Shown piece after piece: positions 20,846 to 62,900 of a stretch of 64,000 nucleotides of DNA. Position numbers and translations under genes: made by a program. Origin of the DNA: Styela clava (lineage: Eukaryota); contig NC_135264.1 in NCBI RefSeq assembly GCF_964204865.1, positions 13,888,001 to 13,952,000 of the forward strand, read 5' to 3'. The notes below the pieces were generated by a model that saw nothing but the letters and a program-made list of their open reading frames with translations, had not been told where the DNA came from and ran no database searches. The stretch's first letter is position 1, and each line of letters begins with the position of its first letter.

Positions 20846-20889
20846 CTTTATCAGCCGACCTCGCAAACGATGATGCCAGAATGAAGCGC

Positions 20890-35473: not shown

Positions 35474-38400
35474 ATGAACTTGCTGCTAAGGAGTCCATAT
35501 TATATCACTTTATTTGTCTGGTAAGTCCCTCATTTTATTAAAAGAATTGTTAGCAGGCAGAATTCAAAAATAAAAAAATAAAATTTTCTTTTGACAGCTT
35601 TATGTATTTGTCGCAAACAAGTTGGGCAATAATAAGTAAGTAAAATGAAATATTTTGATTTAGTTTATATGAAATGTCTTTTTTATAATACATGTTTTCC
35701 CGACTATCAACTTCCGTGTTTATTTATTTTACAATGGCTAATCAGCAAGATGCTAATGGAGATGTAATAATCAGAATTTAAGCACTTTTTTTCAGATTTT
35801 CGAGCTGTTTGTGAACAACGCAAAACTTGGTTATAAATCATAAAAATTAGTCTTTTTTGTCTTAAGAGCTTAAGTTATACTGCAGCACTCAAAAACGTTC
35901 ACGGAAGAATTACAATAGGCTATGCTAAATTAGTTGATTTCTCTTTATTCCCATCTGCTCGGATAATTTCATACAAAGCATTATTTTGTAAGATGCCAAA
36001 CAGTTGGAAAGAGCCAAAGTACAATAAAATCCTATAACTAAAGAAACAACACGTTGCTTACAATGGTAACAGATTGAAAAATAGTTTTCGAACCAAGGTC
36101 CGACAAAACATTCTTCGAATCGTCTTTTCCCCTCTGGCACCAGCGCATTAGAATCCAAGCAAAATCAGAAAATAATAACGAGTTGGTGGGTAAAAAATTA
36201 TATGATGATTTTGTTTAATTTTAGGTCCACATTGTACAGATAAATTTTCTGAATGTAAAAAGTTGGTCAACTTGTGCAACGATAATGGAACGGCTGGAAA
36301 TAATATGAAACTATATTGCACGGCAACGTGCAATTTCTGTCCATTAGGTAAGTGTGTTTCTTTATAGCATATTATCTCACTTACCATATTAGGCTCATAG
36401 GCTATCGCTTCACTGTATAGTCAATCTATAGCAGTGGTTCTTAAGCATTTTCGCACTTTTCCCCTCTCTCTTAGCTGGTTACTAGATTTACCCCAATGTA
36501 CTTCACGATGCTCATTTATCGAAAACGAAATTAGCATATTAGTTCATTACATATATTCATTGTGACGACTGCTTTCTCTTTTTCGCAAAACTTGGTTATA
36601 TTCATTCAATTGCTGGCACAGTAGCAGATATTGCACAACGAATATCAGAGACAACGTTAAATCAAATTGGTGTTTCAGATTTGTTTTTTTTTATTGTTTT
36701 TACTTTGGATTTATTTACCTCCTTCATTTTATTCGATCACCTACTATTTTTCTTATTTTGTTTCTCCGCCTTCCTTGACAATTCGACATAACATGAATAA
36801 ACTTTTGATATTATAATACTAATAGCTATGATTTGTGTTTTCAGATAAATGTTTTGAAAATAATGGCGGATGCGAACAACAATGTCATTGGGATGAGAAG
36901 ATTAACTACTGCACCTGCAATGTCGGATTCAAACTCAATGCTGACAACAGGACCTGCAGCGGTAGGCACATGCAACATGGTGTTATGTTTTGCAAATTCC
37001 GTTTTCGTAAACTGTTTTTTGACCCTAATTCGGACCTCAGCTGATGTTGTGTTTCAACTTAAATTAATTGGAATGTGTATAACAATCACGGAATTTGCAT
37101 ATGCAAATACTGTTACATTTTGAGACTAATAAACACACATACATACAAGTTTTACGTTTCAGATATTGACGAATGTGAAGACAATTCCACTGAAGCGTGT
37201 CCAGGATTGTCACGTGACCATTGCAAAAACACCGTCGGTTCATACACATGCGCAACTTGCTCGCATAATAACGGATATATGATGTCTTATAAACGGAAAA
37301 CGTGTTGCAAAGTCCACAAAAGTAAGATTTAGATTCAAAAATTAGGTAACCAATATGAGAGAAGAAGTTTAAGGCCACCTATTTCAGTATATATATATAT
37401 ATATTCCTCCCTTCGCCTATTTTGAAACTCATCCATCACTATTTGCCAAGTCATTTGTAAGTTTTAAGTAGTTTATAACGTGCGTCTAAATAAGTATTAC
37501 GGCGGGACTTTCCAACCCTATTTCGATGTGGACCTGAGTCGTATGAACCTCCAAGTGTTTACATGAGATATCCACGTTAAATCACTTGCTGTTTATTTTA
37601 GTGTACTCAGTATTACTCCTGGGGGTCCATCTGGGCCACGCCGGGAAGCGCTGTATTACGGTAATACTTGAAAACTACAGAATACCAGTAATACCACATC
37701 AAATATAAAGAAAAATTCTACCGGAAAAAAATCCTTCCCGGAATAAATTCCTCTTCGATTAGGAAACGTGTTCATACAGAAATATGAAAAACATACGCAT
37801 CCTAATTTATTTCAAGGTACCTGTGGCTACGATAGCACAATGGCGTCTCAAATCCAGGAACCTCATTGGAAGAACATGCGAATCTATGGGGGATTGAGAG
37901 CCGAAGAGGGAAGATGGCCCTGGATGGTAAAAAGATTGCCTATTTATCATTTCATTTAGTATTATTTATACGAATATTTGATGATACAGTAATTTATTTA
38001 TTGTAATACCAGAGATAGCAAAGTGGCCAAGGCATATGTGACCACTATAATAACTTCATACATGGCAGTAGTCGGCCGTAACTTTACTCAGAGATTATCT
38101 ATCACTTCTGGGTGGAGATGTGGGCTCGCCAATATGCCAGTGACGAAATAATTCAGTCGTTTAGTTATAAATCAAAATTTGGACATAAGGAACATTTATT
38201 TGTGTCCATATTTCCACCGAATGCAACAGTTGAAAAATGTCGCTCTAAGATGAACTTAGCAAACTTTATTATAAAGATAAATTAAAAAATATTGTTCACG
38301 GAATATCATTTCCCAAATTTCAGGTGCAATTAATCTCAACTCCTGAAAATCTAGAACCGGGTATATGCGGAGGATCTTTACTTAGCAAGAAGTGGGTTGT

Positions 38401-41400
38401 TACTGCGGCGCATTGCTTTCGGTAAGTTGGGACAAGTAAAGAAAGCCGAAGTATTGCAAAATTTTGCTCGAAAAGTCGTTTGCAAATTTAGCAATAAGAA
38501 TTCGTTTGCAAATTTAGCAATAGGAATAACGAAGAAACGAGTAGAATTTAGCAATTTAAATTAATAAAAACTAGGTTCTCCATCTTTTTGGATTTAAATA
38601 CCTCGTTTCATTTTTGACTTTACCATGGTTCTATCTTTCTATTAACGTTTGCTGTCGTTGTCTTTTATATTTGAAACGGCACACTTCCGTTCATTCAATC
38701 TTAGGATAATATACTACATCAGAAATAATCTGACGCATGGCATTACTGAAGTTAAAATATCGGAGAAAATTATATATACTCCAAAGCGGTGTTATCGATA
38801 GTTTTTTGACGAAAGTCTAGTAGGATATTATTTATTCGTATATTGCTGAACATATATACATTATACCTGTCGAATTGATTTCTTTTGCTATTTCAGGAAC
38901 AAATATTCGTATCCTATAAACACGTGGACAGCAATACTTGGTACAAGTCAAAACTTTCTGAATATGAGATTGATATCTGACGGGTTAGAAATAAGAATGC
39001 TGGAAGAGGTAATGACAAGGCATTGGTATGGGATTTGGGTATTTTGTTAGGAAGTTGTAAGTAAGTGAGTTGTGAGTTAGAACGTTCAAGGATCTGAATT
39101 CGGAACCTAACTTTGAAATGTTTAGAATCGCGATGTGAGGTGGAATTATTAAGATAAAAAACTGAATTTAAAATATAAACTGAACAAAGTTGATTGAGAT
39201 TTTTTTTGCTCGAGTTGAAAGCCGCAAAGTAAAAATAAACCGTTTAACCGGGGTTGGGGGTCGGATGTAGATTATCGAGGAGCTTGACTAGATAGTAAAA
39301 CAAAATGATCGGACATTCAAATTATCAATAGATAGAAAACTATGGAAGCTTTCATAAAACAATCAAGGATTCGTTAAGAACTCTAGTTAGATTACGTCTG
39401 GGGTCCCGGTAAATTAACAGCTGACAGTTTTTCGCGTTTGAACATCGCTGCACGATTTTATCGATTTTGACAACAGCTCCGACGGTCTTGTCAATAAATT
39501 ACGCGGATACACAATCTATTTATTGTGTCAATTTGCTTAATAAATATATATATTCCCCAAATTTCCAGGTTATTATACACCCAGAGCACAACCTTTTTTA
39601 TCATCACGACATTGCGTTGGTCAAGTTGGAATCCCAAGTCAACTATAGTGATGTCATAAAACCGATTTGCTTACCGTGCTTAGAGACTCCACAAGAGGGA
39701 GACATGTGTTGGACTGTAGGATACGGGAAAACAGGTTAGAAAAACCTTTACAAAATATGATTATTCGACAGTCTGTTTTTTTAATGTTCATGTCGTAACA
39801 AAGTTATTCTTTCTAGCCTAAATGTATATTATTGTCATTCATGTCACCACCCAAATATAGAAAATAATTTTAGTACATCATAAATTTTAAGATGATCAGA
39901 AAAAGTCAATGAATATCATGAAATAAATTCAAACACATTCCTTAGTGAGAACGGTTGGAACTTAACAATATTTTCTCACAGTTTATGCGATACCATAAGT
40001 AAATTGTAAATGCGGTGGCCAGTGAATAGATCTTGAAGAGGCATCATGACTAGGCTTACCATATTTCTGAAGCAAAAAACCGGGACGGCACGGATCGGAC
40101 AAGTCAACCTTGGTTCAAATCCAGGGGCTTAGTAATAGTTTTAAACGTGTTCCACACCATCTTATCAAATCTTACCAAATCCTATTAAAATATCCACTAT
40201 TGGTCTTTGCTTCAAATATTGGAAATCGTTCAACTCATTAGAAAAGTTGCATTTTGTTTCCGTCATTTTGGTGATTCAACGACAGTACAGTTGGGTATTA
40301 AATTAACGCATGGTTCATATATACTTAATATCATAACTATTACATAACAATTTTTCTCTCTATCTGAACTAGTGAAATGAGACGCAAATCAGTGGTAAAT
40401 CGGCTGCCTCCGTCGAAAAACAAAAAAACAATTTTGTAATAGTATCAAATAGAAAAATGATCCATGAATGCCATAGGGGAAAGTGGGGCACGTTGGGACA
40501 TGGTGCACAGTGGAAAATCAGCTCTCACACTGATACTATATCCGCAATCCTGTCCGCGGTTCGATGTTTCAATCCGCCCTTTGGTGAGTTACAACGTCCC
40601 CGCGAACGGACAACGGAAGGGTAGTGCGGCGCAAGCTATGAAGTGAAATTGATTTTGGAAGGTTGAAACTAAAATTTCACCGTTCCAGTATTTTCTTTTT
40701 TCTACATTGGACTTTCCAACATGACAAACCACCGTCTGATATTATTCAGCTTTAGTCCACTGCAGAATATTCATAACGTTGGCGAGTGGATGTGCCTTCC
40801 AGATTTCGCTGTGGGATAGTCTGAAAATATTTGTTGCCTATGAGGAACAATGGACCGGGGCACAGTGGGACTTGCCCTACAGTGCACAATTCGACATTGT
40901 TTGATACAATAAGTGCTTAGAGACCTAGATATGCGGTATATTAAGTGTAATATTATGGTTTCTTTTGACCCATGGCCCAATATGGAATATATTCGAGAAT
41001 CAATAATATTTCCAGATTTAGATTCGAGGGAAGAAATAATCAAATTTGTTTGCGAAACTTTTTGTCTGATATCTGAACTATTTCAGTTGAACATTGATTT
41101 TAAAATATTAAAGCTTCAAATTTGAAGTCTCCCTGTTCTTTAGACGATTATGCTGATTAATTGCTTATTTTTAAGGGCATACTTCGTTGAATTTTGACGG
41201 ACTGACCCATGGGGCCCCAGGGTCTGTCCGAATGTGCCCCACAAGTTGGGTACAGTGGGACACTTGACAGACGTTTTTCAAAGCATTTTGGTAGTAAGAT
41301 GTGTGTCGCAAGAAAATTTCTTATTCACTGAATGTAAACTACATTTACCCCTCTATACATTAGTCCCGCCAACTTAAGGGAATATGCAGAATTAAAGGCT

Positions 41401-43340
41401 CAAAATATGCAAAAGAAAAAAAGTGTCCCAACCTTCCCCACTTTCCCCTACTGCAAAACCGGGACATTTAAGTCTATCGCCGGGACGGCAGAAAAACATC
41501 CTAAAACCGGGACTGTCCCTCAAAACCGGGACGTATGGTAAGCCTAATCATGACATCACGTTCCTTATATGTAAACTCCCCCAAAAAAGTAGACTTTATT
41601 CTGATCAAAATTCTAATGAAGCATTGTTTTTCAACGCTCCTTATTTAGATGACAACAAAGATTCGGGAGCATTACGCGAAGTAGATGTACCAATAGCTTC
41701 GATGAAAAGTTGTTCCAAGGTATATGCAGATAGTGGAAGAATATTGCAGCAAGATCACATGATCTGTGCCGGACATAAAGAAGGGGAAAAGGATGCGTGC
41801 AACGGTACGTTATTATTTTGCCGTCGACTCCGGGCTCTGTGCCAAGTACAGCGAAATTGCATAAATGGGTGTTTTAATAACCATATAGATACATAGTCTG
41901 AAAAAGGCAATTTTTTGTTATACCGTACCTCGGAACGGTAAATTGATATCCAACAGCCTACCTTTTCAATGTGCCCCCATTCTCCATGATTTAGTTTAAA
42001 CAATCAATAGACTTCCTTAACTCCATCATAGCACATTATAAATTTGCAATAACTTCACAAAAATAATATAGTTAGAGTATTCTATGTTAAGGCGACTCCG
42101 GAGGACCTTTAATGTGCCAACGAAAAGACTCTTGTCAATGGTACCAAGCTGGTATAGTTTCGTTTGGCAAGGGTGGTTGCGGACTGAAAGGGGTGTACGG
42201 AGTCTACACCAGCATGAAAGCACACCAGAGGTGGATAAGACGGCACATAGGGGAGGAAGCAACGAATGACATCTGTAAGTAGTGATAGGAAAAAAAGATG
42301 GGCGCTCCAGAAGTATGTGTACCAATATGGAGGTAACTGATGTTCGCCTTCTTTACATCAAGTTGTGTAAAGAAACTGAAACTTATGGGCAGGGGGTATA
42401 TTCACTTGGATAACACAGACAGTGCGCAAACTCGTAATATAACTAAAATAAGGGAAATCGGAATGAAATTATGGTCTGACCCTAATCTGGTACACACACT
42501 ACGAGAGTACCGAAAGAAGTATATAGACTACGCCTTGGAATGACTATCTCCCTACTTTAAGTATGCTCTGTACTGCAGTTACCATGGTTATCTATCTTTC
42601 GGTGTTCCGAGTTCGTTTTACAATACAATACAAACTATCTTATTTTAGGCCCCGAAAACGCTTGTCAAAATCTCTCTGACAACGATCCTAAATGTTCATC
42701 GATGATCGAGCGATGCACAAAATTTCCCGATTATATGAAAACCAATTGTGCAGCGACCTGTTGCAGACTGAAATATGGCACAAGTAAGGAAATTATAAAG
42801 TTTTTTTAAATAACATTCAGAAGGTTGATTTTGGAGTGGAGTGTCTAGCCTACGATAGGGACCAAAAATCCCAAAACGAAATATTGTGATTAAGCCTTAA
42901 GATATGAACGGAGTAAATATACATCCTTGAAACATAAATACATTTTCTTTGGCTTTGGTTATGAGTTCATGTCTGGCTATTCGAGACTAAGTCATAGAAA
43001 ACTAATATATCGGAATAACCAATGTATACATGATTTTAAGACTATATACACTAATATGTATTACAAAATCAACAATGCCACTTATAGTACTGCGCTTTAG
43101 TTTAGATTACCAACTCATTATTTCTTTCTATTTATATCTATCATACGCTTACAGAACCTTTTATATTGTCTCTTTCTCTGCCTTATTTTGACACAATATT
43201 TATTCAATATAGGACCGAGTCAATGTCAAGACGAACCAACGTTTCAATCCACATGCAGAAAGAATATTAAACATTGTTCAAGTTCTATTTTTTCAAGTTT
43301 TATGAAGAAACATTGTAAAAGAACATGCGGAATTTGTTAG
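35474..43340 (+). CDS. Secreted multidomain trypsin-like (S1) serine protease: signal peptide-ShKT-EGF-cbEGF-protease-ShKT-ShKT, ~523 aa
   Basis: 13 phase-consistent exons: 35474-35520, 35598-35635, 36225-36347 (ShKT), 36845-36961 (EGF, CFENNGGCEQQC), 37163-37321 (DIDEC cbEGF), 37817-37926 (activation site R|IYGG), 38324-38421 (TAAHC), 38897-39008, 39569-39734 (DIAL, PICLP), 41649-41804 (KDACN, Asp189), 42092-42274 (GDSGGP), 42649-42783 (ShKT-like), 43213-43340 (ShKT, MKKHCKRTCGIC*). Confidence 0.93.
40051..41546. mobile_element. Non-autonomous hAT-like element in a protease intron, carrying a nested element
   Basis: TIRs TAGGCTTACCATA / TATGGTAAGCCTA, perfect 8-bp TSD ATCATGAC, subterminal CCGGGAC repeats. 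Confidence 0.85.
40474..41450. mobile_element. Nested ~1-kb TIR element
   Basis: TAGGGGAAAGTGGGGCACGTTGGGACA / TGTCCCAACCTTCCCCACTTTCCCCTA, with internal GTGGGAC(A) repeats; no transposase ORF. Confidence 0.75.
42301..42511 (+). mobile_element. MITE family A (protease intron)
   Basis: GGCGCTCCAGAAGTATGTGTACCAATATGG...CTACGAGAGTACC. Confidence 0.78.
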
Positions 43341-43913
43341 TTTAGTATATTTTTGAAAGTTAATAAAATACCAAAAAGGATAAATTTTGCTACAAGTGAA
43401 ATTACACAAGGAAGATTTGTTGGTGTTTTGTTAGAAATATTAGGATTTACATATTATATTTATCCTAAAAACGAAACCCGAGAAGACGACATCATCATAT
43501 TGCTAACAACGGCCTCTTGTCTGGTTACCATAGAGCCAGTTATTTTTTTTTATTTCATATCCATGGACTTAACAATAAAACATAGTCATTTCAGCACATT
43601 TAACGTACCGGTATGTTACATATAGTATGTCATAGAGATAAGTAGAAAACCCTCTTATAACACACCGATATCTTCAGCTACTGAAAATGTGAAGATGATC
43701 AGTTCGATTGTTGTGGAAAAAAAGTAATTTTAACATCACCAGTAACAACAATTTACCAATAGGATCTAAAAAAAAATGCAAAAAGTTTTTCTGAACACCC
43801 CCACAGGGAGTAATTGTATCTCTCTGTTACCAACACAGTTCAAGATAAGAAGCAAAATTGAAATTCGCTCAATAGTCGCTACCTTAACCACTTCGCCTCC
43901 CAATCAAGTAGAA

Positions 43914-46900
43914 TTAATAATAGTCGTCGTAGTAATCATCCTCATAATTATCTTCCTCCTCTTCGACGCATCCCGGAAAATCGAGATCGCCAACGTAAAA
44001 TCCCTTCAAATCGGACGGTGAATGGCAAAGTGTTGTGTCTGCGTCTCGAAGCATGTCACCAGCCGTGTCTCGAATCAGCATCATTCCACAGTCACAGAAT
44101 ATGGGATTCCCGGCCAAGTAAAGGGAATAAATGTCACTGGAATGAATGCAGAAGAAAATGAGAACAATGCAGAACGATAGAAGTTCCTAAATCCCTGCCC
44201 AGTTGCGGTATTGCCGGTACCGATGAAAATTGGGAAATTTAAATTGGGAATACAGAAATAGGAATATTTAAACCAGAAATGGGTCCAGCGGTTATACGAT
44301 CTATAAAATTTGTAGCTATAATCCAGTCCTAACTTTGAATTGGGTTGCCGAGACTAACTCAACCTTCCACTGCTTGATTGTTACTTATCGATCTTAAGAT
44401 CGGTAAGTATGTTAATAGGTATTTGTCTGTCTGTATTTCTGTTTGTCTGTGTGTTAGATGCACGCGATATCTCACGAAAGCGAGGTTGAATCTGCTCCAA
44501 ATTTTGCATGTGCATTTATCATAGCTCGGATCAGAAGCCTATTGATTTTGGATGAATTATCTCTTATAAATAGCGAGTTAATAAGTAATTAGTGATGGGA
44601 CACACGGTGTCACTATGGAGTAAGACCACTGTTTTGGGGGATCCCCTAACCTTAGATCGATAAGTCTTCGGTTTCTAACCGATATTCTAATTTATTTCTT
44701 GCCATTGTTGTAAACTGCTCGTCTGAAGAAGTCTGACGTTGGTCGAACGAAACGTTACAGAAATACATTTGTGTTAGTGTGCAGCTGGATTCTTTAATTG
44801 GATAATATAATCCAGTCACCTGAGTCACGGCTCATCCATGTCTCGAGGAAAGTTAATCTATGAGTTGAGTTTTTATAATTTCGAGTCACTTTATTTAGAT
44901 TATTGGAGTCAATTTGAGTGTTTGATAAATGGAGACTCTGGTCCAACTCGTGTTGAGTCAGTGAGTTGAACCTCGAGCGCCCCCCTTACCAAGACTGATA
45001 CAAACATTAGGTCGCGATTATATCGCGGAGCGAAAAGTTTTCGTAATTTTCAACACCGTGAAAAGAATTATTGTCGGGACATTAATTCGGAGAGTTTTGC
45101 GTTTGTTGCTTATGTATATAACTATCATTAATGTTATAAACCTTGAAACGTAAAAAGCAGATTCTACAGTCTACACTTCTTGAGATTTTTAAAACTGTTT
45201 TATTTTAAAAAGCTTAAGAATTAAATAGTGATCTTCTTATTTAATCATTCTATATAAAACTTACCGCCTACTGAACAAAACGTCTATCGATTCTTTTCGT
45301 AATATCTTAATGCGGTTGTGCTCCAGTCTAATCTGATGTTGACCATGCCACCTCACGCCAATCTGTCTGAAAGCCTTTTGCCCAATGAACTCTATCCTAT
45401 TGTGACGTAAACTAAGGAAAGAGATGCTGGGAAGGTGAGCGAACGATCCCGGCAGAAGTTGGGTGATTTGGTTGCGGTCCAAGTCCAAAATCTGTAACAT
45501 AGTAGTAAATCGAATTTGTTAGAGAGAGGATCCTAAATTAAGTCTACATAGTCAGCGAAAATATATAGGAATAACTACGCAGATTATATCGGGCTCGTTT
45601 CTTATGCTCTCCTATCACTTTGAACAATATGTAGCCCACGCGGTTTTTCTTTGATTTAATGTCCCCATTATTAAGAATAATTTATTAAAATTATTATAAG
45701 GTTACTGCTACCATTTCGTTTGGGAAACAAACAAAGCGTATTAACGCGAATTGTGGTAAATTAAATACAATTGTGGTTTTGGTTTGCACTTGAGTGGTTC
45801 GCGTAACCGCTGAACGGTAACGGCTTCCTCCACCACTAAATCCATACATCTGAAACAAATAATTGGTTAACTATCCCCATACCCGACATGGCTGGTAACC
45901 GGTGTAGATGCCGTGGTAATTATGGGTCATATGAACGACTATAAACTATATAAACTATATCCGTTTTCCTCTCACCACGGTATAGGAAAATCATATCCTA
46001 TTATCTCGAATAACACTTTAAGAGTTTCGGTTACAAAGAAGTTACATTAATCTCGTCAAATTTGACGGCCTATAATACAGTATATATATACATAACAGCA
46101 AAGTACATACAAATTGTACTATGTAAATTAGTAATACTTTACACTCACTTGTAGTTTTTTTAGATGTCTGAAAGCAACGGGATGAATTTCTCGAATTGAG
46201 TTATTTGCAAGGTTCAGAAACTCAAGTTTTTTCAATCTTCTGAAACTTCCTTTCACCGGTGACTCAATATGATTGTTACTCAAATCAAGTCTCACAAGGC
46301 GCGGTGGGAACTGAATATCTGAAATCGGGAAAAAAATCAGAATATCAGAGCTTTGGTCACGCTTATACTTCGTATTGTCTAATAAATGCCACACAGGTTT
46401 TAAAATGGCGGCCAATTGATGCCTTTGAAGCTACTTTACTGTGATAAGAAATGGAATCTTTTTGGTCCGTAAATACCCCAATAGGATATGTCAAGTATCG
46501 GCAACTCTTACTGCATGGGTGTGCAACCTGCGGGAAAACTGTGCTGCCCGTGGAGAAGTGTCAATTTTGAATTATGTGCCCGCGAAACAAGGTTTTGAGT
46601 AATTCGGTACGTGCGAGGAATTCCAAACCTTTGCGTTGCGAAGCCTATACCTGAGCCCAATTTATTATCTATGCATATGGCTTTACAGTGGTTTAATTTA
46701 ATTAACAGCTAGCCCTTCTGTATCAAAGGTTGCGTATTCCTGCCTTACTGCACTGCCTATCTATTTTAAAACCTGAAATATTTTTCCTAAAAAATCACAA
46801 ATCATAATTATAACATTTGCTTTATGCTTGCAGTTTGTATTATGTCACTAGTCAAAAATGCCAATATATTGAGATTGGGATAAACGTGTTCATCTTCTTA

Positions 46901-48923
46901 TAAAAACATGATTTCGCCAACTGTAACTAGCAAAGGAGAGTTTATAACTTAACAACTATGAACATACCGTGCAAAAATGTCAAATTATTATGTCGAGCCT
47001 TCAAGATCTTCAATGCCGGTAGAAGCTTAACCATCTCCTCCAGAGGAAAGTAACAAAGTCGGTTATTGTCGAGGTTGAGGAAGTCGAGAAATCTGAAAAA
47101 AAAAATAGAAAAGTTGCAATTGCATTTAAAACAGTACACCATTTTATAAATGTTATCCGAGCGAAGTTAGTCAAATTGCCTTTGCTGTTTTATTTTAATT
47201 CGTTCGAACGCTTTTCTATTCTTTCACGCTTGGCCACCTTCCTTATGTTTGTCGTCGATTGCAAACTCGGTTCTCTGAGGCCGCAGCTACCGGTATAGAT
47301 GCGCGACCTTCTCATTCATGTATTCACGCATTGCTCTATTGTTAGAATTAGAAATGAACATTTAAACCATAGATTTGTCCGGTTATGTGATAGATTAAAA
47401 TTTGTAGCCGTCTTCCACAAAACTAAAAAGTAGTTCGCAGGACAAGTTTCTTCTTTTATGAATTAATCTAATTATACGCTGGGCAAAAAGAGCAAAAACA
47501 GGCGTACAAATCCGAATGAATCGACCCAGTTGTTAATACACATTTACCTCATAGCTTTAGTTATCTTTAGACTTCTGATTGAATTCTGCGACAGGTTCAA
47601 TTTTTTCAGCTCAAAGAAACGTGAAAACATGTCCAAGGTTATGTGTCCCATGTTTTCTCCAATGATAGATAATCTGTAAAAAGGAGTACAACGGCTCGGT
47701 TTAAGCTCTATGCTTTTCAATGAATCTGGCAACAGAAACGAGCTCGATTTTTTCCGCGTAGGAAATTGATGTTTGACGTGGTCCTCATCTAGTCGAACCT
47801 CAAATATTATTTTGTATTAGGCCCACAGACGAAACAATACACTGACCTTGTACAGAAGTTTATACCAGGAAAAACGATAAGAAGCTTAATTCCACGACCT
47901 CCCGTTAGGGTACCATTCACCAGTACAAATCGAGTATAATATTAGTTACCTTCATTTGTTCCAGATGCATGAATGGACTTGAAATATTGTTACATTAAAT
48001 ACATATAGACTACACTACAATGTTTAAAATACTCTCTACTATTCTCATTGAAGTGTTTCATCATAATATATATATATGCTTAAAATTCAATTAAAAATCA
48101 TGCAATAAGATTGGACCTACAAAATGATTGATATTACTGCAACAGTCTGCAAGTACAAGTCTCGCGCGCTTGTGTGCTATTTGCAAAATCGTTATCATAA
48201 TGACGAAAGCTAATATAAGTTTACTTTATACATGGTCGAAACCTTTATATCCGCCGTTCACACATTTCTCTCAAAATAAACTCGCCTTGTGGTATTAACG
48301 GGAAGAACATCAAGTCGATCAGCAACGTTAGCATTGAAGCAGATGAAATCAACTTCACGACAGAACAATTCTCCTTTCTCTGAAAAAGTCAATATTTCAT
48401 TAAGAATCTCATTTTACTGAAGACAAGATGTGCAATTGCCCTAAAGTAAATAGATACGACAGTCCAACAAATATCGAGCCTATAGCAAAAATGTATCACA
48501 TAAAGTTCACATGTTGAGAAAATAACATTGTGCATCTTTGATTATTAAAAAATAGACAATGCAGAATAGGACCCTCGGCGCCTAAAAACGGGTTTTTGCT
48601 CTCAAATACAGCACAAATTTATTAAAAAATGACTTATTTCTTGCTGTTGTTGTTGCAGACCGCCACCGCCTACAACGGTTAAACCGAACTCACTCATCTG
48701 GCTACACATTAATTTGCTCTGGACATGAGTGGACTTCCATATATTTAAATTTCATATATTTACCAAAATCATACTTTCGCTTACCTTTCAAACAATCCAC
48801 ATCTCTGCAGTAGCATCTTTCTGGGCAATCTTCAATGGGCATTGGAGGATATCTCTTACTTATGACATCACCAGCGAACAACACAAATGTAGCAACTACA
48901 AAAATTATAATCTTCATCGCCAT
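43914..48923 (-). CDS. Secreted leucine-rich-repeat protein (signal peptide, LRRNT, ~9 LRRs, LRRCT, acidic Tyr-rich C-terminus), ~367 aa
   Basis: Exons 48923-48785 (signal peptide, CPERCYC), 48379-48286 (GC donor), 47673-47548, 47092-46968, 46318-46149, 45491-45265, 44136-43914 (LYLAGNPIFCDC...CHSPSDLKG...CVEEEEDNYEDDYYDDYY*). No TM segment. Confidence 0.9.
44381..44692 (+). mobile_element. DINE-1/HINE-like non-autonomous Helentron
   Basis: Subterminal IRs ACTTATCGATCT (44383-44394) / AGATCGATAAGT (44654-44665), partial IR next to the 5' copy, (TGTC)n microsatellite, 3' hairpin TCGGTT-TCT-AACCGA (44668-44682). Confidence 0.75.
44718..44760 (+). ncRNA. Minimal hammerhead ribozyme, second copy (LRR gene intron, antisense)
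   Basis: CTGAAGA-A-GTCTGACGTTGGTCGAAC-GAAACGTT-ACAG; core intact, stem II partly mismatched; followed by the same AAATACATTTGTGTTAGTGTGCAGC tail as the other copies. Confidence 0.6.
46514..46742. mobile_element. hAT-like MITE
   Basis: CATGGGTGTGCAACCT / AGGTTGCGTATTCCTG; TSD tcttactg/ccttactg; related to 51878-52172. Confidence 0.65.
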
Positions 48924-53614: not shown

Positions 53615-53942
53615 TTCTAGTGCGAATGGCATCGCAGAAAGTTTCCAAAATTTTGGATTCAATTGTTTCGATCTTCGAATAAAACACGATTCTTTAAAAT
53701 ATAGAAATCAAATTTAGTCAAACTTATTTCTGAGATCATAGACATCCCTAATTCTTAGCCACCTTATATTTAAAATGACCAAATTTGGAGATGAGAAAGC
53801 TTGCACCATTATTGACTACCGAGCTACCTTCAAGATATTGGCAAAACATATTAATCAAATACTTGATTTAATAATGCACTCGATTTGGAAATTAGAAGAC
53901 AATTTACATATTTGCGTTATTGCGCAATTTAGTTATAATCAG

Positions 53943-56900
53943 CTACAATGAGGTTATGTATGTAATATTTTCTGGCACTGTAGGGGTTGTGGGGGGAGTC
54001 AATTTTTTCGGTTTTGTCACGCAAGAATCTAGCAACTTTGATCTCACCCTACCAGGAGTATCACTCTGGGTACGATAACGATGATCGTCTTTAGTACCAC
54101 TAGAGGGAGTAGAATGAGTATCTAAAACAATTTCAGGTTCAAGGGTCAAATCTTCCAAACTTTTTGATACAGGAGACACCATGTCGCTCGTGTTGTCCGT
54201 ACTAGAGAGCAGATCGTCCGTTGAGTGAGTGATTGATATATTTGAAGGTGAGCGAGAATGTTTTGTTCGAATTCGTCCGAAACTGAATAGCGATCCGCCC
54301 TGGAGGAAGTTGGTTATTGGAGTACCTAAAATATATTATTTTGACGATGAACTGTTTTTAGGATCAGTGTGACGAAATAAAGGTTGGAGAGACATGCATA
54401 TCCATTATGACAGTGGTTTTCAAACGGTGCGGTGTGCCCCCTTCAATTTTTCAAGGGGCCGTGAAGCTAATTAAAAATAAAACTATTTTTTAGATTTGAT
54501 TTTGCCCGCCTTATTTTGGATATTAACATTTTTTTATTTTGGATATTTATGTTCCATCCACGTACTTTCAACATGTTTTTTGAATAAAACATACTTTCAC
54601 TTTACTATTTGTTATTTATAGCCTATTGTTAGCTAGTTATTCTTGAGGTGGGGCCAGACTTGACAAATTCTAAAAAGTGGGTGTGGGCAAAAAGTTTGAG
54701 AACCACTTCATTATGACATCAGTAATAATTTCCAAAGTTGGACAAATATTCCAGAATCAGTAAAAATCATTAATCTTTCTTACCTAAAACAGACTTGCTA
54801 CGAAGACCTTTTATTGGGGAGTAAGGAAAATAACTCGACAACACATTCAGACTGTTTTGACTCGACGATGACGAATCGAACAGAGAAATATTCTCTTGCG
54901 ACACCGTGTGGTTGAAATACATTCCGCTTACATTAAACGAGTCCTCCTCTCCGCTACTTAGATGGAGGGAGTCATTATAAAGTTTCCGCTTCAACATTTG
55001 AAGCTGTGGAAAAAAAAGGTAAAATTAAGTAACTTTTTATTGAAATTTGAATAACAACTCTCCCTGATATACGAACTACTTGAGATATTATGTCTGCAAA
55101 ATATTTGCTGATTAATTGTAGGTCACCTCCTGTGAGTTTGCAGATTCAAATTCTGTGAAATATGACACAATGCAGGGGAATTGCAAGTTGTAGGAGCTGT
55201 AGAGTTTGGGTTATTGCACATGTTTTCTCGATGTGTTTTTATTTAAGTAAAAGCTAACAGTACGTGTATAGTCTTGTGGTTATATTGAGTCAGCAATGTC
55301 TGACTGCCCTTTTCCAGCCAATGTGCTCGTCTGGTCTTCATGTGATTGGCAATAAAACAAACATTTCACTCTTACTTGACTTTTAATTTATTCATCCTCA
55401 TAACAACATCTATAATTTGTTTATCCCCTGAATTATGTTTTAAGTTTCTTATAGAGGCATCATTATCAGCACGTCCCTGCATTGCACTTCACCCTTAGCA
55501 TAATGAATTAGGCAATGCAGAAACAGAAAGATTTCTAGTAAAGGCGTAAAGAGCTTTTATGAGAGTGATGATGTTGAATTATCGTATAAAAAAGTCGATA
55601 TAAGAACCTGCACCTTATTATGTAAGATGTGTATTTCATCATACAATATAGATTCCTGTTGTAGCATTGCTGCAGGACCTCCACCATATATTTGAGACCA
55701 TGGAAGCCATCGGAAATAACACTGTCGCCAGAACTGTAATTTCCGAATTGCTGTACATGGATAGAGAGGATGAACATGTTCTGCAAAAACAATAATTTTA
55801 GTTTATTTATCGTCGCAAGACTGCAGAGTCGAAGAAAAGTTCCTCCTGATGAAAAAAGACTGAAGCTTTACCATGGGCTAAAAAAATTAACTGCAACTGC
55901 AGGCCTCTTATCCTGATTACAAAAGAATGAGAAAAAAAGTAGACTAAAGATGGTGGCACTTCACCCAGGGTATAAATATTGGGTAAGGAATGTTAAACGA
56001 ATAAATTGGGTAAGCAATATCAAATCCGAAATGATCCCGGTCCACTCAGAGTGAAGTCATTGAAATACCAATGAAAGACTGTTTTTCAATTTAGTCCATT
56101 ATACATTTCTACCGGTATAGAAGTCACAAATTTGGCGCTCCAGAAGTGCGAGTGCCGAGTACCAATATGGAGGTAACAAATTTTGTTTGCCTATGTTACA
56201 TCAAATTGTGTAAAGGGACGGAATCCTATGGGCAGGGGGTATATTCACTTGGCTAACACGAACAGTCCCCGAACTCGTCATAGAACTAAAATAAGGAAAA
56301 TCAGAATAAAATTATGGCTTATCCCAACCTGGTACACATACTACGGGTGTACCCAAATTTGTACTATTCGAGTTAAAAATATGACTATGACGGCATTTGA
56401 ACACCAAATCCCAGTTATTGAATCAAAATATAGTATTCAGGATTCTTTTTATGGAGTAAAAATATCTTTGTGACACCACAATATTACGCACCTGCAGTAT
56501 CAGTCACACGTTTTTGCATAAAAAGATCTTTGAATTTGATATTATATGTTGCGACGTTAATAAAATCATCTGTTGATTCAGGTTGTTCTAATACATTCTC
56601 CTTAGTTTTTTTACGACGCAATGAAAACCTGTTGCAGACAAAGACATCGGAATCAGTTAATTTGAGCTAGATTGGCTTGTCAGTTAATACACCAATTATT
56701 TAGGTAAGGTTAACGAGTGAGCAAGAAATAAAATCAACACTATATGACATTGGCTGTATATGTATATGTTGTTGGCTCTATATGCATATGAGTTGGCTGT
56801 ATGTGCATCTGGCATTGGCTGTAAATGCATATGAAATTGGCTGTATACGCATATGACCTTGCCTATATATGAATATTTAGTTGGCACTATATGTATATGA

Positions 56901-59900
56901 TTTGGCTGTATATGCATATGACAACTCTTTAACTGACTAGGAACTGAAGAAAGCTTGAAGCAAATCAAGAATAACTATAAGTGGCTTATGAAGAAAGAAG
57001 AGTGCATTTTTGCAAATTGGACATTAAATGAAATAACTCATGGATAAGAAATATTCCCAATATTGAAATGAAAATTTTATACGAACATGATCTTGGGAAA
57101 TTAGCATATTCTTTCATGTTATGAAATAACAAAATATAAGATATTAATGTTCGTAACAGCTACAACACGAGGACAAATGTTTTCAAAAAAATTAGAATAG
57201 AAATAAAGAAACCTTGATTTGAGTTTCGGTGAATTTGGATCGACAGGTTTTAACATTGAATCATCGTCCAATCGTTCCGAATGATCGTCACCGTTTACTT
57301 TTTCATTCAATTCCCCGACTTGATCATCATCCTTACACTCGCTGTCGCTTTTTGATCTTGACGGTCGTCGGTCTTTCTCAGAGTCTTGCGGAGATGCGGT
57401 CCAAGTGACTTTTTGCCCTGGCATAAGCGCTACTTTCGGAAAATGGCCTGCTGGGGGTGGTACTTTTCTCAATTGAGGGTTTTTATTCTCTTCTGTACTC
57501 TCACTACTTTCTCTTCTTGTACTTTTGTTTTTCTCTTCTAAGCTCCCACTCTTATTTTTTACTTTGTTCAAAGGGAGAGGATTGTCTTGTTCAATTTTAC
57601 GACGATGCTCTTCTAGTTTTTTGTCTTTGACGCTTGTTTTCTTTTTTCCGTGCGTCGGACTTTTCGGAGATCGAGAATGCAAAGAGGAACCATCGGGTAT
57701 GTCACCATTTATATTGTCACCATCCATCCTATAAACATACAATGAAAACAGTTTAAAGTTTATTTTTTTAAAGCTTTGTAGAGCCAAGAAAACAAACGTT
57801 AGAGATCAGCTGTATGAGGCATCACCCTTAGCGTTAGATAAAAGCTTGCCTTCACTGCATCTCAGATTACCCTGCGTAAGTTCGAATCCATGCATCTGAA
57901 ACGGATTTAATCTGGAATGCATTTAATCCCACACCCTACCTAAACTGGTAACCAGACAATTGGTCATGGTACAACATATGATTAAGCCCAGTGGCGCAGC
58001 CAGAGGGGGTTTTCAGGGTAGAAACCTATTAAATGGCTTGGGTCGGGTTGTGAACCGCGGACCGCCTGTTGCACACTGCACACCCCTGACGCAGATCAAG
58101 GGATGGCAGTTAGTCTCGCGCAATGTAGTTATACTATACATTAATTACAAAATTATATTATTTACTTTTGAAGGTCATCAGTGATATAAACATCGTTTGT
58201 AATAACCCTTTCTTTTCCATCAGAATTATCTGAACTTTCCTCAACATATTTCCTGTAGTTTTCCATGGTTCGCATCCTTGAAACAAAGAATTGTAAAAGG
58301 TTGTAAATATCTGGCAGTTAGTTAAACTTCTAAGTTAGAGCAGGACACACACCTCTAAGTTTGCTTTGGGAAATGGTTAGAGGTGTAGTCAGGAATTTCA
58401 GGAAGTTTGAAACTGGAATTGGAAATTCCAGTACAACGTCTTGTGAAAGAGTCTCGCCTCTCAACAAAAAAAAAGACTTTTTCATCGAAAAGTGATTTTT
58501 TGTTGCGCAAAACATTCAATTCATGACAAATACGAGCATTTAAAAAGTCTTTTCTATCAAAAAATGATTTTTTTTCAATTCAATCAATTCATGACCAATA
58601 CAAGAATCTAAAATTTCTTTTTCATCGAAAGTAATTTTTCTGTTGTGCAAAAACATTCAATTCATGACTGATACAAGCATTTAAAATGTATTTTTCATCG
58701 GATAATGATTATTATGTTGTGCAAAACATTCAATCCACGACCAATACGAGCATTTAAAATGTCCTGCCCAATTTCAAAACTCAATTAAATGACTCTAGCA
58801 CGCCTAACATGAGTCCAACTTACTTGTATAAAGGATTGTTGAATAAAGTCATGTCAGATTTATTAAACTGTGATTTCCAAACCCAAACAGGCAAAAATCG
58901 TCTTGACATTGTTTCAGTGGCAGCTTTGATTGCAAATGAAGGATGCTAAATATAGAATGAAAAGTTAGGCAAAGACAAGAAATTCCATTTGTTAGATATT
59001 TTAAATCCTTCTCTGCAATTGGTTTCTATTTTAAATATACTAAAAAGATTGTGTAATTCAAAATTAGAAGATATATTTCAAAATTTATGTCTTAAAAATA
59101 ATTGGTATTTTTTTCAAAAATTGTTGAAGTTTTGTAGCGAGATCATGATTTACATTCAATTTCGATGAACCAAAAAAAAGTCCTCTCTGCTAGGCAAAAA
59201 GTTGGAAAAAGCAGAAAAATAATTTTTTGTATTCAACTTTTGATACATCAAGGGCTTGCATATTGATTGATCATGTCTCCCAACTTCTGAAAATATTTTT
59301 TTATGATAAACAACGAAAATTAGGCAAAAATTCAAACCTCGGCCGCCATCACACTCTTATGTCTTTGTCTCTCATTATTAAACATAAAGGTATCGAAAGC
59401 GGTCGTGCGTGTCGCATCGTAAAGAACAGTTAAAAATGTTACACTGGGTTCAAATCTTGCTGGATATTGGACCATAAGTTGATAAACACAATCAAGAAAC
59501 AGGAGGAATACGGGTGCCTGTTAAAGAGCAAATATAAAGTCTTGTAGAAAGTCGTTCATATAAAAAATTTTGCAATAATTTTTATACTCTTGTTTTATGC
59601 AACTAGTGTTGGATTGAAGTCCTAAACTAGGGGTCAGCTGCTAGATTTTCATTATATAAAGTATCATCCATTTGACTTTCAATTTTCTAAAAATATATGC
59701 GGCCCGCCAATAGCTTGCAACCCTTAATTTTGGCCCACGAGCAAGTCACTCAGTCATTCAGTTTTTGGTAAATGGTTGATCAAGTCAAACTCGTATTGGG
59801 GCTAATGAGGCAATCCCCGACTTAAGTCTCAGTGTCACTCTCGTAAATGGTGATTGAAGTCTAACTCGAGTAGAGTAAATGTCTCCAGCATCCCATTCGG

Positions 59901-62900
59901 ACTCTTTAGTCAATTCCTGAGTTTCTCAGTGGCGGTCGCGTCACTCAAAGTCATACTCAAGTTGAGTGCCTGACGCCAGCATACCTTTGGGGTTTATGAG
60001 TCAATCCCTGAGTTACCGTAGGTCTCAGTGGCAGTCGTGTCACTCAAGTCTTACTCGAGTTGAGTGCATGACTCCAACTTCGCACTTGGCTGGGTCTTGG
60101 TGTACATAATATGATACTCCAGATATAATTGAAGACATACTAGCAGTCTAGTTTGAAGACCCACCTACAAGCATTAAGCAATGCTGAACCGTAACGATTT
60201 CATTCAATAAAAATAAAATAGCTGCCTATTAAGCAGTGAATCAATACAGAATATATCAAGTAATAATATTTCAGAACGTATTCAGAATAGTTGAATTTTC
60301 AAAAATGACCATACCTGAGAAATAGCTAGAGTTAAACATCAACACTATATTACGACAAATACACAATGTGTTTAGGACGCAGGTTATACTCACAAGTTGA
60401 GTTGTGTCCCCTGCTGAAGACACTGAAGTGACTTGTTTCCCTCGCTTTGTTGGTTGCAACAAGTGTCCAAGTCGATCAAGGAAAGGATGTCCTGCAACCA
60501 CCCATTCTCTTTGTATGAGTGCTTGAATCCCTTCCAATGTTCGACAGGTTGGATCCAGTATTAACTGGACTAAACTGGTTATGGCTGATGAAATGTCAAT
60601 GCCGTCATGCTCTGTAACAGACAGTCTTATATTATTCCTTTAATTTGAAATAATCAGAAGTGATTTGCTTTCATAGAATTCAAAATAAATCTTGTTTACA
60701 CCTGTCGTGTGGGTCTAAATATACTCGATATACCTTTTTTAAAGGGTGGGTAAAAGTGACTCAATCGTTTGACTTAATTGACACAACTGACTGCCAACGA
60801 GAATTTGATGAGAGATAAAAGATAAAATTGGGTCTTTTGAAGTATTATTTGCCACTATTCTATCATACAATAGGAAAATTATTTGATAATCAGAGTAATT
60901 GAATAAAGAAAAAATTTCAATTTTTTATAACTTTTTTCCTGATTCATATTTGCTAAAAAAAAAGTTCTTTCTAAAATCTCAAATATTCCTAAAATCAAGA
61001 AATATTTGAATATTCCTTTTGTTTTGTTTTCAAAATCCTCAGTTGTGGAAATATGAGATTAACAAAATATGACTAAAAATTTGAGAATAGTGGAGATGTT
61101 GTATCCTATTTTTTCAGACAAGCGTGGGATAAGTGGCACACAATATTCTTGAGGAGACACTAACATTGTGGTAAACCAAAGAGTTTCATCCTTACCCTTG
61201 ATAACAACATTCAACTCTCTTTCCCGCAGACATTTTGCTGCCTCTGTTGCAGTTTCCAACACAGTACCAACATATTGAAGCCATTTAGTTGCGTGAAGTT
61301 GGCCATGCCAATGTGTATCTGTTTCCCAGAATTCACTTTCCGTGGCTGCAAAACAGTTTTTATTAGGACTCTAAAGCAGGGTTTCTAAAACTGGGATCAG
61401 CGGACCCCAGGGGGTTCTATGATGACTGCATGGGGGGTTCGCAACAACATGAAAAGAGTCTGAAACACATACAATTAGATCATGATCTTATCGAATTGCC
61501 GTTAGCCTGCTCGTATTTACGGTTGTATGTATTGATTCAGTCTTTCATGAGTTTTATTTCGTCTAATGAAACATTATCCTTATTCGTTGGTTAGGCACAG
61601 GAATTATTACGACATAGGGTGGGGGTTCATCGAAAATAAGATTCACAAACCGGGGTCTGCAGCCCAAAAAGTATGGGAAACCCTGCTTTAGAGAATTTAC
61701 TGCAGGGTTGCTCGAACTGGTACCCCTCGAGGGCCACAGAAGGGTCCTCTTGGGCGGGCTAAAACGAAGCCTTCACTCGTTCCCTACATCAATTTTGAGT
61801 GAAGTGTCTGTCTTTTGTTAAATTCTTTAACTGTAATGTATTCATTTTATGTATTTTTTATGTTTAAACGGTGCATAAAAACTGATTGAAACATGTTACA
61901 ATCAAAACTGAGTATTTTTATACAAGAGCAGTGGGCGACGCACCATGGAAAAGGTTGGGGAACCACATGCATAATAATATACTGATATTAAATGGATAAT
62001 ATAGTAAGACCAAAATAACTGAATAACCCCAATATTTAACACGTACTTAGACTAGTAATAGTATTTCTGATGGGGCTTTCTGTTGGTCCATATAAACAAA
62101 ATAACACTTACCGGGCATACAAATAGACTTCAACTTATGAAAGGATTGTTGCAGCTGCAAACAGGAAGGACATTTATGTTCTGACACGTCAATGACCCTG
62201 TGATAATTAATAATAGGTGATACGTGATAACGTCAATGTAAGGTTATGACTATATAGTAATGAGTAATCAAGATGGCTGGAGCGCATAAGGGCGCTTCAG
62301 AAGTATGTGTACCAATATGGAGGTAACTACTTTTGTTCGCCTACTTTATTTACATCAAGTTGTTTAAATAGAACCCACGGACAGGGGGTATGGGTATATT
62401 CACTTGACTAACACAGACAGTCCCCGAACTCGCAATAGAACTAAAATAAGAATAATCAGAATAAAATTATGCCCTAACCCTAACCTGGTACACATCACAA
62501 AGTACCAAAATTTGGATTTAATCGGTCCCTTAGTTTCGGAGAAAAGCAACTTTTTTCCCAACACGACAAGAATTTAGTAAAAAAACAATCCATAGCCCCA
62601 GTTCGTGACAAGAAAGCATGTTTAAAAATAGCCTACATTGTTTAAATTCATTTTAAATCAAGTATCATACTTCAGTTTGATACAGATTTTAGGGTACTCC
62701 CGAAGTATGTGAACCAAGATGGCAGACACCGGAACGTAGTATGTGTACCAGGTTAGGGTTAGGCCATAATTTTAGATACAAATACTAAGGGTGTCACTTG
62801 GCTAGTCCCCGAACTCGTATTAGAACAAAAAAAGGAAAATTGGAATAAAATTATGGCCTAACCCTAAATTCAGTAACCCAAAAACTATATTCATCTTAAG

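What the first reader, a model, noticed from the sequence alone, without database searches (positions are those of the whole stretch)
43914..44136. Soluble GPIb-alpha-like LRR protein with a sulfotyrosine-type tail, tail-to-tail with a trypsin-like zymogen
Right after the LRRCT the protein ends in EEEEDNYEDDYYDDYY*: five Tyr among acidic residues, a strong tyrosylprotein-sulfotransferase context. LRRNT-LRRs-LRRCT followed by an anionic sulfotyrosine stretch is the layout of the platelet GPIb-alpha head, whose sulfated DLYDYY region binds thrombin; hirudin-type inhibitors use similar tails. The stop codon is only ~570 bp from that of the EGF-EGF trypsin-like protease, which has basic patches (RWIRRH, YKRKTCCKVHK, MKKHCKR). 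Hypothesis: a linked protease plus LRR cofactor/inhibitor pair for wound sealing or immunity in an invertebrate, also relevant to the proposed GPIb-alpha-like origin of agnathan VLRs. Adjacency alone does not show interaction.
Basis: inference. Interest (0 to 1): 0.7.

Follow-up and report, generated by a model that had tools for sequence, protein, structure and literature searches.

The report
Sea squirt protein with sulfotyrosine-type tail
A sea squirt gene encodes a predicted secreted leucine-rich-repeat protein that ends in an acidic, tyrosine-rich tail, which is likely sulfated and likely grips positively charged partner proteins; it lacks the loop that marks the platelet receptor GPIb-alpha, so the likeness is likely convergent, and binding to the protease encoded next door is possible but untested.

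Summary
A 7-exon gene (48923-43914, minus strand; Styela clava LOC120334180) encodes a 367-aa protein: signal-like N-terminus, LRRNT, about 9 LRRs, LRRCT, then 16 residues with 10 D/E and 5 Tyr. Spliced contigs from 6 of 6 RNA-like runs cover the last exon and read past the stop, so no TM/GPI exon follows. The GPIb-alpha/VLR link fails: the LRRCT has 20 residues between Cys2 and Cys3 (GPIb-alpha 36), so the shared insert is missing; the N-cap differs; there is no stalk; the closest folds are LRG1, LGR4, NGL-3 and chondroadherin. The neighbour is a ShKT-EGF-EGF-trypsin-ShKT-ShKT zymogen, one of at least 106 trypsin loci. Two of the three 'basic patches' lie outside its catalytic domain. RWIRRH does sit on the exosite-II helix, is the most basic of 30 paralogs, and Tyr225 is present, but only 2 of thrombin's 7 basic GPIb-contact positions are Lys/Arg and position 93 is Glu. 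Best reading: a convergent heparin-mimic sulfotyrosine tether on a secreted LRG1/chondroadherin-type protein, partner unknown; the neighbour as partner about 17%. No ortholog was found, so synteny is untestable.

The parts
48785..48923 (-). LRR gene exon 1 (coding part): hydrophobic signal-like N-terminus and start of LRRNT (C33, C37, C39, C44)
   Evidence: hydropathy peak 2.3 at residue 3; contig X1 rec4 covers 49142-48785
48286..48379 (-). LRR gene exon 2: rest of a 6-Cys N-cap (C53, C60); followed by a GC-AG intron
   Evidence: exons 2+3+4 sum to 345 nt, exactly the gap in contig X1 rec4; matches P0001
47548..47673 (-). LRR gene exon 3
   Evidence: (X7 rec23)
46968..47092 (-). LRR gene exon 4
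   Evidence: matches P0001
46149..46318 (-). LRR gene exon 5
45265..45491 (-). LRR gene exon 6
43914..44136 (-). LRR gene exon 7 (coding part): insert-less LRRCT, acidic Tyr tail, stop TAA
43917..43964 (-). Tail, residues 352-367: 10 D/E, 5 Tyr (358, 362, 363, 366, 367), no K/R; predicted disordered
   Evidence: (pLDDT <50 over 354-367)
43341..43913 (.). 573-bp interval holding both 3' UTRs; AATAAA on + at 43362 and 43574, on - at 43554; covered end to end by RNA-like contigs
   Evidence: (X2 rec10)
35474..43340 (+). Neighbour gene, 13 exons, 523 aa: signal-like N-terminus, ShKT, EGF, EGF-Ca, activation site R|IYGG, trypsin domain with H/D/S triad and Asp189, ShKT, ShKT
   Evidence: (P0182, P0183); first ShKT read from its Cys pattern
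42196..42198 (+). Tyr225 equivalent (Na+-site marker)
   Evidence: aligned to thrombin; 3 of 30 paralogs have Tyr
42211..42249 (+). C-terminal helix of the catalytic domain (230-242), net +4; contains RWIRRH
43213..43340 (+). Last ShKT domain; holds MKKHCKR

Best explanation
The gene encodes a predicted secreted LRR solenoid of the LRG1/chondroadherin layout ending in an acidic five-tyrosine tail, which is likely sulfated in the Golgi and likely works as a flexible heparin-mimic tether for basic patches on extracellular partners, and which likely arose independently of GPIb-alpha. Shown: gene structure, spliced transcript, stop, absence of a second hydrophobic segment, insert-less LRRCT, sulfotransferase genes in the genome. 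Inferred: secretion, sulfation, tether function. The partner is not identified: heparin-binding growth factors, matrix proteins, any basic protease of the animal, or the basic outer face of its own solenoid are all candidates, and the tail-to-tail position beside the protease is then most likely incidental.
For: Transcript and stop: 4 of 4 RNA-like runs and X4 and X8 (6 distinct runs, 3 studies) splice exon 6 to exon 7 and cover the stop and 3' UTR. No hydrophobic segment after residue 25 (max 1.1; last 30 residues 0.13). Sulfation context: 2-7 D/E and 0 K/R within 5 residues of each tail Tyr, against 0-3 D/E for the six other Tyr. TPST-type exons: 8 N-terminal and 10 C-terminal among 27 matches; the two checked match only TPST1/2-type chains (7 of 7 hits each). 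Constraint, weak: the 3 coding differences shown in the last exon are all synonymous, one of them Y358 TAT>TAC, and all 12 listed indels fall outside the coding part (8 substitution rows were not shown). Fold: AF2 mean pLDDT 80.9; VIA top rows LRG1 Z 30.1 (rmsd 2.8, 297 aligned), LGR4 29.8, NGL-3 29.1, chondroadherin 28.7; Foldseek TMq 0.59-0.68 for NGL, chondroadherin and LGR4 rows at the top against 0.36-0.47 for the GPIb-alpha rows. Precedent for convergence: acidic Tyr clusters arose independently in fibromodulin, osteoadherin and mimecan and act as heparin mimics; osteoadherin has two sulfated Tyr in an acidic C-terminus (PMC7310474; PMC9372746). Other LRR genes here carry acidic Tyr-rich segments before the LRRNT (L009, L013). 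The solenoid outside the strand motifs is basic (24 K/R to 11 D/E, approximate).
Against: Sulfation is not shown, and sequence-based prediction was inaccurate for SLRPs (PMC7310474). No ortholog was found, so the tail's conservation across species is unknown. The neighbour protease has the most basic exosite-II-position helix of the 30 paralogs examined and Tyr225, a coincidence that this reading leaves to chance. S. clava hemocytes also convert Tyr to DOPA in styelin D (PMC3039461).
Confidence: 0.6

Rival explanations
1. The tail is a dedicated exosite ligand for the neighbouring ShKT-EGF-EGF-trypsin protease: a linked cofactor or inhibitor pair working like GPIb-alpha with thrombin, evolved convergently.
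For: The last catalytic exon matches thrombin best among solved structures (E 5.6e-9), with Tyr225 and the C-terminal helix aligned. Helix net charge +4 is the highest of 30 S. clava paralogs (next +2); 3 of 240 parsed domains in the database hits reach +4, two being this gene. Tyr/Phe225 marks Na+-binding proteases (PMC9669250). Y363-D364-x-Y366 has the i, acid, i+3 spacing of madanin sY32-D33..sY35 and GPIb-alpha Y276-D277..Y279. Spliced contigs of both genes occur in the same runs X1, X2 and X8, and their 3' regions meet.
Against: Of thrombin's basic GPIb contacts R93, R101, R126, R233, K235, K236, K240 (PMC3919161) only 236 and 240 are Arg here; 233 is Ala and 235 Gln; 93 is Glu, 101 His and 126 Leu (numbering by the H91-P92, D102 and C122-L123-P124 anchors, recalled). 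R93E is the charge reversal used to disable exosite II. The catalytic domain is neutral overall (26 K/R, 27 D/E). The whole domain is closer to kallikrein, enteropeptidase and factor XI (1e-45) than to thrombin (6e-39), and its nearest kin are an ascidian expansion with a CQRC..C motif. The genome has at least 106 trypsin loci and 26 further LRR matches, so neighbours of this kind can arise by chance. Tunicates lack a coagulation system (PMC5465252). Runs are of unrecorded tissue, so co-occurrence is not co-expression in a cell.
Confidence: 0.17
2. The tail tyrosines become DOPA/TOPA (or are oxidatively cross-linked) and, with the carboxylates, bind metal or fix the protein into the tunic or a wound plug.
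For: Styelin D of S. clava hemocytes has several DOPA; tunichromes and DOPA proteins are linked to tunic cross-linking and wound repair (PMC3039461; PMC5465252). Terminal YY pairs are exposed.
Against: The context is purely acidic, which is the sulfotransferase context; the DOPA examples read are small hemocyte peptides, not folded LRR proteins. The protein has only five tail Tyr.
Confidence: 0.12
3. The tail is a lineage-specific low-complexity extension with no specific binding role (solubility or charge balance for a basic solenoid).
For: No ortholog; predicted disordered; the core is basic (pI 9.1).
Against: Mixed synonymous codons, no coding indel and only synonymous changes among those shown; five Tyr are not needed for charge; the pattern is unique in the genome.
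Confidence: 0.08
4. The gene is a true tunicate relative of GPIb-alpha and the VLRs, retaining the ancestral sulfotyrosine segment.
For: Same order of modules, and similar distance from last Cys to the Tyr cluster; GPIb-alpha chains are among the Foldseek matches (E 5.7e-11).
Against: No LRRCT insert: Cys2-Cys3 gap 20 against 36 in GPIb-alpha and 30-32 in looped VLRs; 25 of 45 caps in stored LRR proteins have 18-24. Six N-cap Cys against one disulfide. No stalk, TM or GPI. Six coding introns, whereas VLR genes have their only intron in the 5' UTR. GPIb-alpha is reported absent from invertebrates (PMC3308329). Lower TM-scores than other LRR families.
Confidence: 0.03

Closest known systems
LRG1 (leucine-rich alpha-2-glycoprotein; PDB 8h24)
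   Same: Top VIA row: Z 30.1, rmsd 2.8, 297 aligned; soluble LRR protein of like size
   Different: 22% identity; rows within 1 Z are tied, so this is a shape match, not orthology; the acidic Tyr tail and 6-Cys N-cap are features of the Styela protein
Chondroadherin (PDB 5lfn, 5mx1)
   Same: Z 28.7, TMq 0.59-0.66; secreted LRRNT-LRR-LRRCT with a short free C-tail (layout recalled)
   Different: 21-24% identity; its tail is basic and heparin-binding (recalled), the opposite charge
Osteoadherin, fibromodulin, lumican (class II SLRPs)
   Same: Secreted LRR proteins with acidic sulfotyrosine ends acting as heparin mimics; osteoadherin has an acidic C-terminus with two adjacent sulfated Tyr (PMC7310474)
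   Different: They use the SLRP C-terminal cap with an ear repeat (recalled), not a 4-Cys LRRCT; their clusters arose within vertebrates
Platelet GPIb-alpha with thrombin exosite II
   Same: LRR domain followed by a flexible anionic segment with clustered Tyr about 12 residues past the last Cys; the LRR part does not itself contact thrombin (PMC3919161)
   Different: GPIb-alpha has an LRRCT insert, one N-cap disulfide, a stalk and a TM; here the Tyr cluster is the very C-terminus of a soluble protein
Hirudin-like motifs (madanin, heparin cofactor II, complement C4, gigastasin)
   Same: Aromatic-acidic pair within an 8-residue acidic/hydrophobic run (PMC9372746)
   Different: No active-site-blocking segment is evident: nothing follows the last Tyr and the tail has no Arg or Lys

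Membership tests
GPIb-alpha / VLR group | Insert (loop) in the LRRCT | tested here: not met
   Cys2-Cys3 gap 20 against 36 in GPIb-alpha (C211-C248) and 30-32 in looped VLRs; feature named in PMC3308329
GPIb-alpha / VLR group | Stalk plus TM (GPIb-alpha) or Thr/Pro stalk (VLR) after the LRRCT | tested here: not met
   Stop 17 residues after C350, covered by spliced contigs; no hydrophobic segment
GPIb-alpha / VLR group | N-cap with one (GPIb-alpha) or two (VLR) disulfides | tested here: not met
   Six Cys at 33, 37, 39, 44, 53, 60; pairing not resolved (pLDDT <50 there)
GPIb-alpha / VLR group | Anionic Tyr cluster just after the LRRCT (GPIb-alpha) | tested here: met
   Tyr 8-17 residues after C350; GPIb-alpha 12-15 after C264
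GPIb-alpha / VLR group | Closest fold is GPIb-alpha or a VLR | tested here: inconclusive
   GPIb-alpha rows TMq 0.36-0.47, other families up to 0.68; repeat number affects these scores
GPIb-alpha / VLR group | Phylogenetic grouping with GP1BA/GP5/VLR | not tested
   No GP1BA or VLR sequence was held as a stored protein
Sulfotyrosine anionic segments (hirudin-like or acidic array) | Secretory-pathway protein with Tyr among D/E, no basic residues, flexible segment | tested here: met
Sulfotyrosine anionic segments (hirudin-like or acidic array) | TPST enzyme in the organism | tested here: met
   (exon-level; intactness not checked)
Sulfotyrosine anionic segments (hirudin-like or acidic array) | Tyr actually sulfated | not testable with these tools
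   needs MS or anti-sulfotyrosine blot
Canonical SLRPs (classes I-III) | SLRP-type two-Cys C-terminal cap with ear repeat (recalled) | tested here: not met
   CxC-x20-C-x18-C four-Cys LRRCT, aligning with LRRC4B/C, Slit2 and FLRT3 caps
LRG1 / chondroadherin-type soluble LRRNT-LRR-LRRCT proteins | Signal peptide, capped solenoid, no anchor, about 350 aa | tested here: met
LRG1 / chondroadherin-type soluble LRRNT-LRR-LRRCT proteins | Orthology to a named member | tested here: inconclusive
   22-24% identity, tied Z scores; no tree
Thrombin / coagulation proteases (neighbour gene) | Gla domain and kringle or EGF pro-region (recalled) | tested here: not met
   Pro-region is ShKT-EGF-EGF; no Gla or kringle family found
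Thrombin / coagulation proteases (neighbour gene) | Tyr/Phe225 | tested here: met
Thrombin / coagulation proteases (neighbour gene) | Basic exosite II (R93, R101, R126, R233, K235, K236, K240) | tested here: not met
   2 of 7 are Arg; two other basic residues at 232 and 239; Glu at 93

The most novel reading that the evidence does not exclude
An ascidian without a clotting cascade has built a GPIb-alpha/thrombin-like device on its own: a soluble LRR protein whose sulfotyrosine tail docks on the basic C-terminal helix of the Tyr225, Na+-type protease encoded tail-to-tail with it, within a wider sulfotyrosine control system that includes about ten tyrosylprotein sulfotransferase genes and an Arg-P1 serpin with a heparin-cofactor-II-like acidic Tyr N-terminus.
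Probability: 0.15. Interest if true: 0.7.

Novelty: new variant of a known kind. Interest (0 to 1): 0.33.

Why it matters
If the tail is sulfated, it is an invertebrate-chordate case of an LRR protein with a sulfotyrosine tether, at the C-terminus of an insert-less LRRCT, and adds to the evidence that such tails evolve repeatedly; the module order alone then cannot be used to argue GPIb-alpha/VLR ancestry. If it also binds the neighbouring protease, exosite control by sulfotyrosine would be shown in an animal without coagulation, and one synthetic sulfopeptide would test it. As it stands it is an uncharacterised single-species protein with a plausible modification and no shown partner.

Tried and rejected
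Complex prediction of protease residues 107-385 with LRR residues 23-367: verdict 'no answer', score 0.00 in two runs, alignments not used, no sulfate modelled; it bears on nothing. No RNA holder was listed on record; the runs are guessed RNA and are used only because their contigs skip the introns. Run X4 shows no cover of the protease's last exon; contigs cannot show absence. GPIb-alpha and native VLR chains are not among the 50 VIA rows, not among the best 60 of 357 PDB sequence matches to the whole protein and GPIb-alpha is not among the 15 matches to the last exon (an amphioxus VLR-like chain, 4xsq, is there at E 0.29); absence from lists excludes nothing. Ortholog searches: last exon, 1 of 10 candidates (itself); whole protein, 24 hits, others 25-39% over 25-66% of the length; the representative search showed 150 of 64,108 hits, filled by long repeat proteins, so a distant ortholog under 175 bits would be hidden. 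The ESM Atlas gave no result for this sequence. A genome census of LRRCT tails failed: Pfam LRRCT found only 3 places and missed this gene. A first count of helix charge used a wrong window and was redone; a pattern parse of paralogs missed 13 of 30 and was redone by alignment. A T-run at a contig end near 43457 was rejected as a poly(A) mark because it starts with genomic letters. Two of ten LRR windows in the face-charge count were one residue out of register. A paper on serine-protease codon markers was not held, so the TCN codon of Ser195 is not interpreted. Literature: 'ascidian + leucine-rich repeat + tyrosine sulfation' gave 1 unrelated paper; none of the 15 listed of 4,247 holds 'tyrosylprotein sulfotransferase'; none of the 15 listed of 828 mentions Styela clava. 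These searches do not cover most subscription journals or supplementary tables. Microsatellite, mis-annotation and a further TM/GPI exon were considered and rejected.

Full report
Observation. The interval 44136-43914 on the minus strand is the last coding exon of a seven-exon gene starting at 48923. The model gives 367 aa and equals the NCBI protein LOC120334180 of Styela clava (P0001). One 1,427-nt contig runs from 49142 to 43810; the part not listed is 345 nt, exactly exons 2+3+4, which fixes a GC-AG second intron. Contigs of X1, X2, X3 and X7 (4 of 4) and of X4 and X8 join exon 6 to exon 7 and cover the stop and the UTR beyond it: six runs, three studies. These runs are only guessed to be RNA, but they skip the introns. 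No hydrophobic segment follows the N-terminus.

The tail (residues 352-367) has 10 D/E, 5 Tyr and no basic residue. None of 20,000 shuffles reproduces it and none of the other 292 stored proteins has a like window. The exact eight-codon pattern is unique in the genome; a looser seven-codon pattern occurs three times, control 0. Codons are mixed, the three coding differences shown in other individuals are synonymous (one keeps Y358), and the 12 listed indels are all outside the coding part (eight substitution rows were not shown, so this is weak).

What the protein is. AlphaFold2 on a 14-row alignment gives a capped solenoid, mean pLDDT 80.9, with the N-cap and the tail unresolved. The best structural rows are LRG1 (Z 30.1, rmsd 2.8, 297 aligned), LGR4, NGL-3, LRRTM2, chondroadherin and Nogo receptor, largely tied. 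In Foldseek the GPIb-alpha rows have TMq 0.36-0.47, NGL, chondroadherin and LGR4 rows up to 0.68. The last exon aligns with LRRC4B/C, Slit2 and FLRT3 caps. The proposed GPIb-alpha origin of VLRs rests on a shared LRRCT insert (PMC3308329, passages). From the disulfide positions in PMC6058257 (first third of the text) the Cys2-Cys3 gap is 36 in GPIb-alpha and 30-32 in the looped VLRs; here it is 20, within the 18-24 range of 25 of 45 caps in stored LRR proteins. The N-cap has six Cys, and there is no stalk. It is not a member of that group. What it shares is the position of the anionic Tyr cluster: 8-17 residues after the last Cys against 12-15.

Sulfation. Each tail Tyr has 2-7 acidic and no basic neighbours within five residues. 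The genome holds TPST-type exons at 8 (N-terminal) and 10 (C-terminal) places, seven of the latter in one array on C2; the two checked match only TPST structures. Acidic Tyr clusters arose several times in vertebrate SLRPs and act as heparin mimics, and osteoadherin has such a C-terminus (PMC7310474, passages; PMC9372746, passages and section 10). Two other LRR genes of this genome have acidic Tyr-rich N-terminal segments. Sulfation itself is inferred. DOPA formation is a rival in this species (PMC3039461, passages).

The neighbour. The plus-strand gene 35474-43340 has 13 exons with GT-AG introns and encodes signal-ShKT-EGF-EGF-trypsin-ShKT-ShKT, 523 aa, with an R|IYGG activation site, an intact triad and Asp189. 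MKKHCKR is in the last ShKT and YKRKTCCKVHK ends the second EGF exon. RWIRRH is on the catalytic domain's C-terminal helix. Against it: of the seven basic residues that contact GPIb-alpha (PMC3919161, passages) only 236 and 240 are Arg; 233 is Ala, 235 Gln; 93 is Glu, 101 His, 126 Leu (numbering anchors recalled). The domain is neutral overall, is closer to kallikrein, enteropeptidase and factor XI than to thrombin, and belongs to an ascidian expansion. Tunicates lack a coagulation system (PMC5465252, passages).

Linkage. The stops are 573 bp apart and one contig joins the spliced ends of both genes (X2 rec10), so the 3' regions overlap or abut; contigs are unstranded and show no single transcript. 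The other neighbours look like a CRTC-type gene, a tetraspanin and a myotubularin-related gene (names from recalled motifs). With at least 106 trypsin loci and 26 further LRR matches, one such adjacency needs no special cause. The LRR gene is single-copy and no ortholog was found, so synteny could not be tested.

Mechanism. Most likely (0.6) the protein is secreted, its tail is sulfated, and the tail acts as a flexible polyanion that captures a basic patch while the solenoid binds something else; the solenoid's outer loops are basic, so tail-to-core contacts are also possible. The neighbour as dedicated partner is 0.17, DOPA chemistry 0.12, no specific role 0.08, GPIb-alpha/VLR homology 0.03.

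Verdict. A real gene and a real, non-random tail; a new variant of a known kind (soluble LRG1/chondroadherin layout with an osteoadherin- or GPIb-alpha-type anionic Tyr end). The searches found no description of it; no supplements were read, and ascidian proteomic tables could bear on tissue and modification. The scan's earlier notes hold nothing on this sequence. Interest 0.33.

Noticed in passing
L021:3729-9998 (G000:C6, about 11.909-11.915 Mb): A serpin gene with an exon encoding an acidic Tyr-rich segment (DEYYEDY) in phase before the serpin domain and an Arg at the likely P1: a heparin-cofactor-II-like layout (comparison recalled) in an animal without thrombin. Splicing not checked with reads.
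   Followed up: partly
G000:C2:20.150-20.226 Mb; C16:7.32-7.33 and 8.877 Mb; C4:4.62 Mb (L024-L029): About ten tyrosylprotein-sulfotransferase-like genes, seven in one tandem array; vertebrates have two (PMC7310474). Intactness and substrate not checked.
   Followed up: partly
window 48286-48810 (minus): Six-Cys N-cap with what looks like an internal duplication (YCRDVDC / FCREVDFIC) split across exons 1 and 2, followed by a GC-AG intron.
   Followed up: partly
L031-L055 (G000:C3, C5, C9, C19): A large trypsin expansion sharing a CQRC..C motif after GDSGGP, in tandem arrays; residue 225 is Pro in 24, Tyr in 3, other in 3 of 30.
   Followed up: partly
L009 (G000:C5:24.126 Mb) and L013 (G000:C1:17.905 Mb): Other LRR genes with acidic Tyr-rich segments before the LRRNT; L013 also has a Thr-rich stalk and a TM segment, a layout closer to GPIb-alpha than the gene studied here, though with an insert-less LRRCT.
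   Followed up: no
window 43341-43913: The two 3' UTRs appear to overlap or abut, and this interval is highly polymorphic between runs.
   Followed up: partly
P0183 versus window 36845-37321: An older database model of the protease reads through the EGF region in another frame and lacks both EGFs, and P0182 lacks the signal and most of the first ShKT; the window supports a full 523-aa frame.
   Followed up: yes
window 20650-20900, 23280-27750 and 53900-61400 (all minus): Flanking genes resembling CRTC, a tetraspanin and a myotubularin-related protein (names from recalled motifs).
   Followed up: no
L019 (G000:C18:16.487 Mb): Third hit of the acidic-Tyr pattern, in a short open frame; gene not identified.
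   Followed up: no
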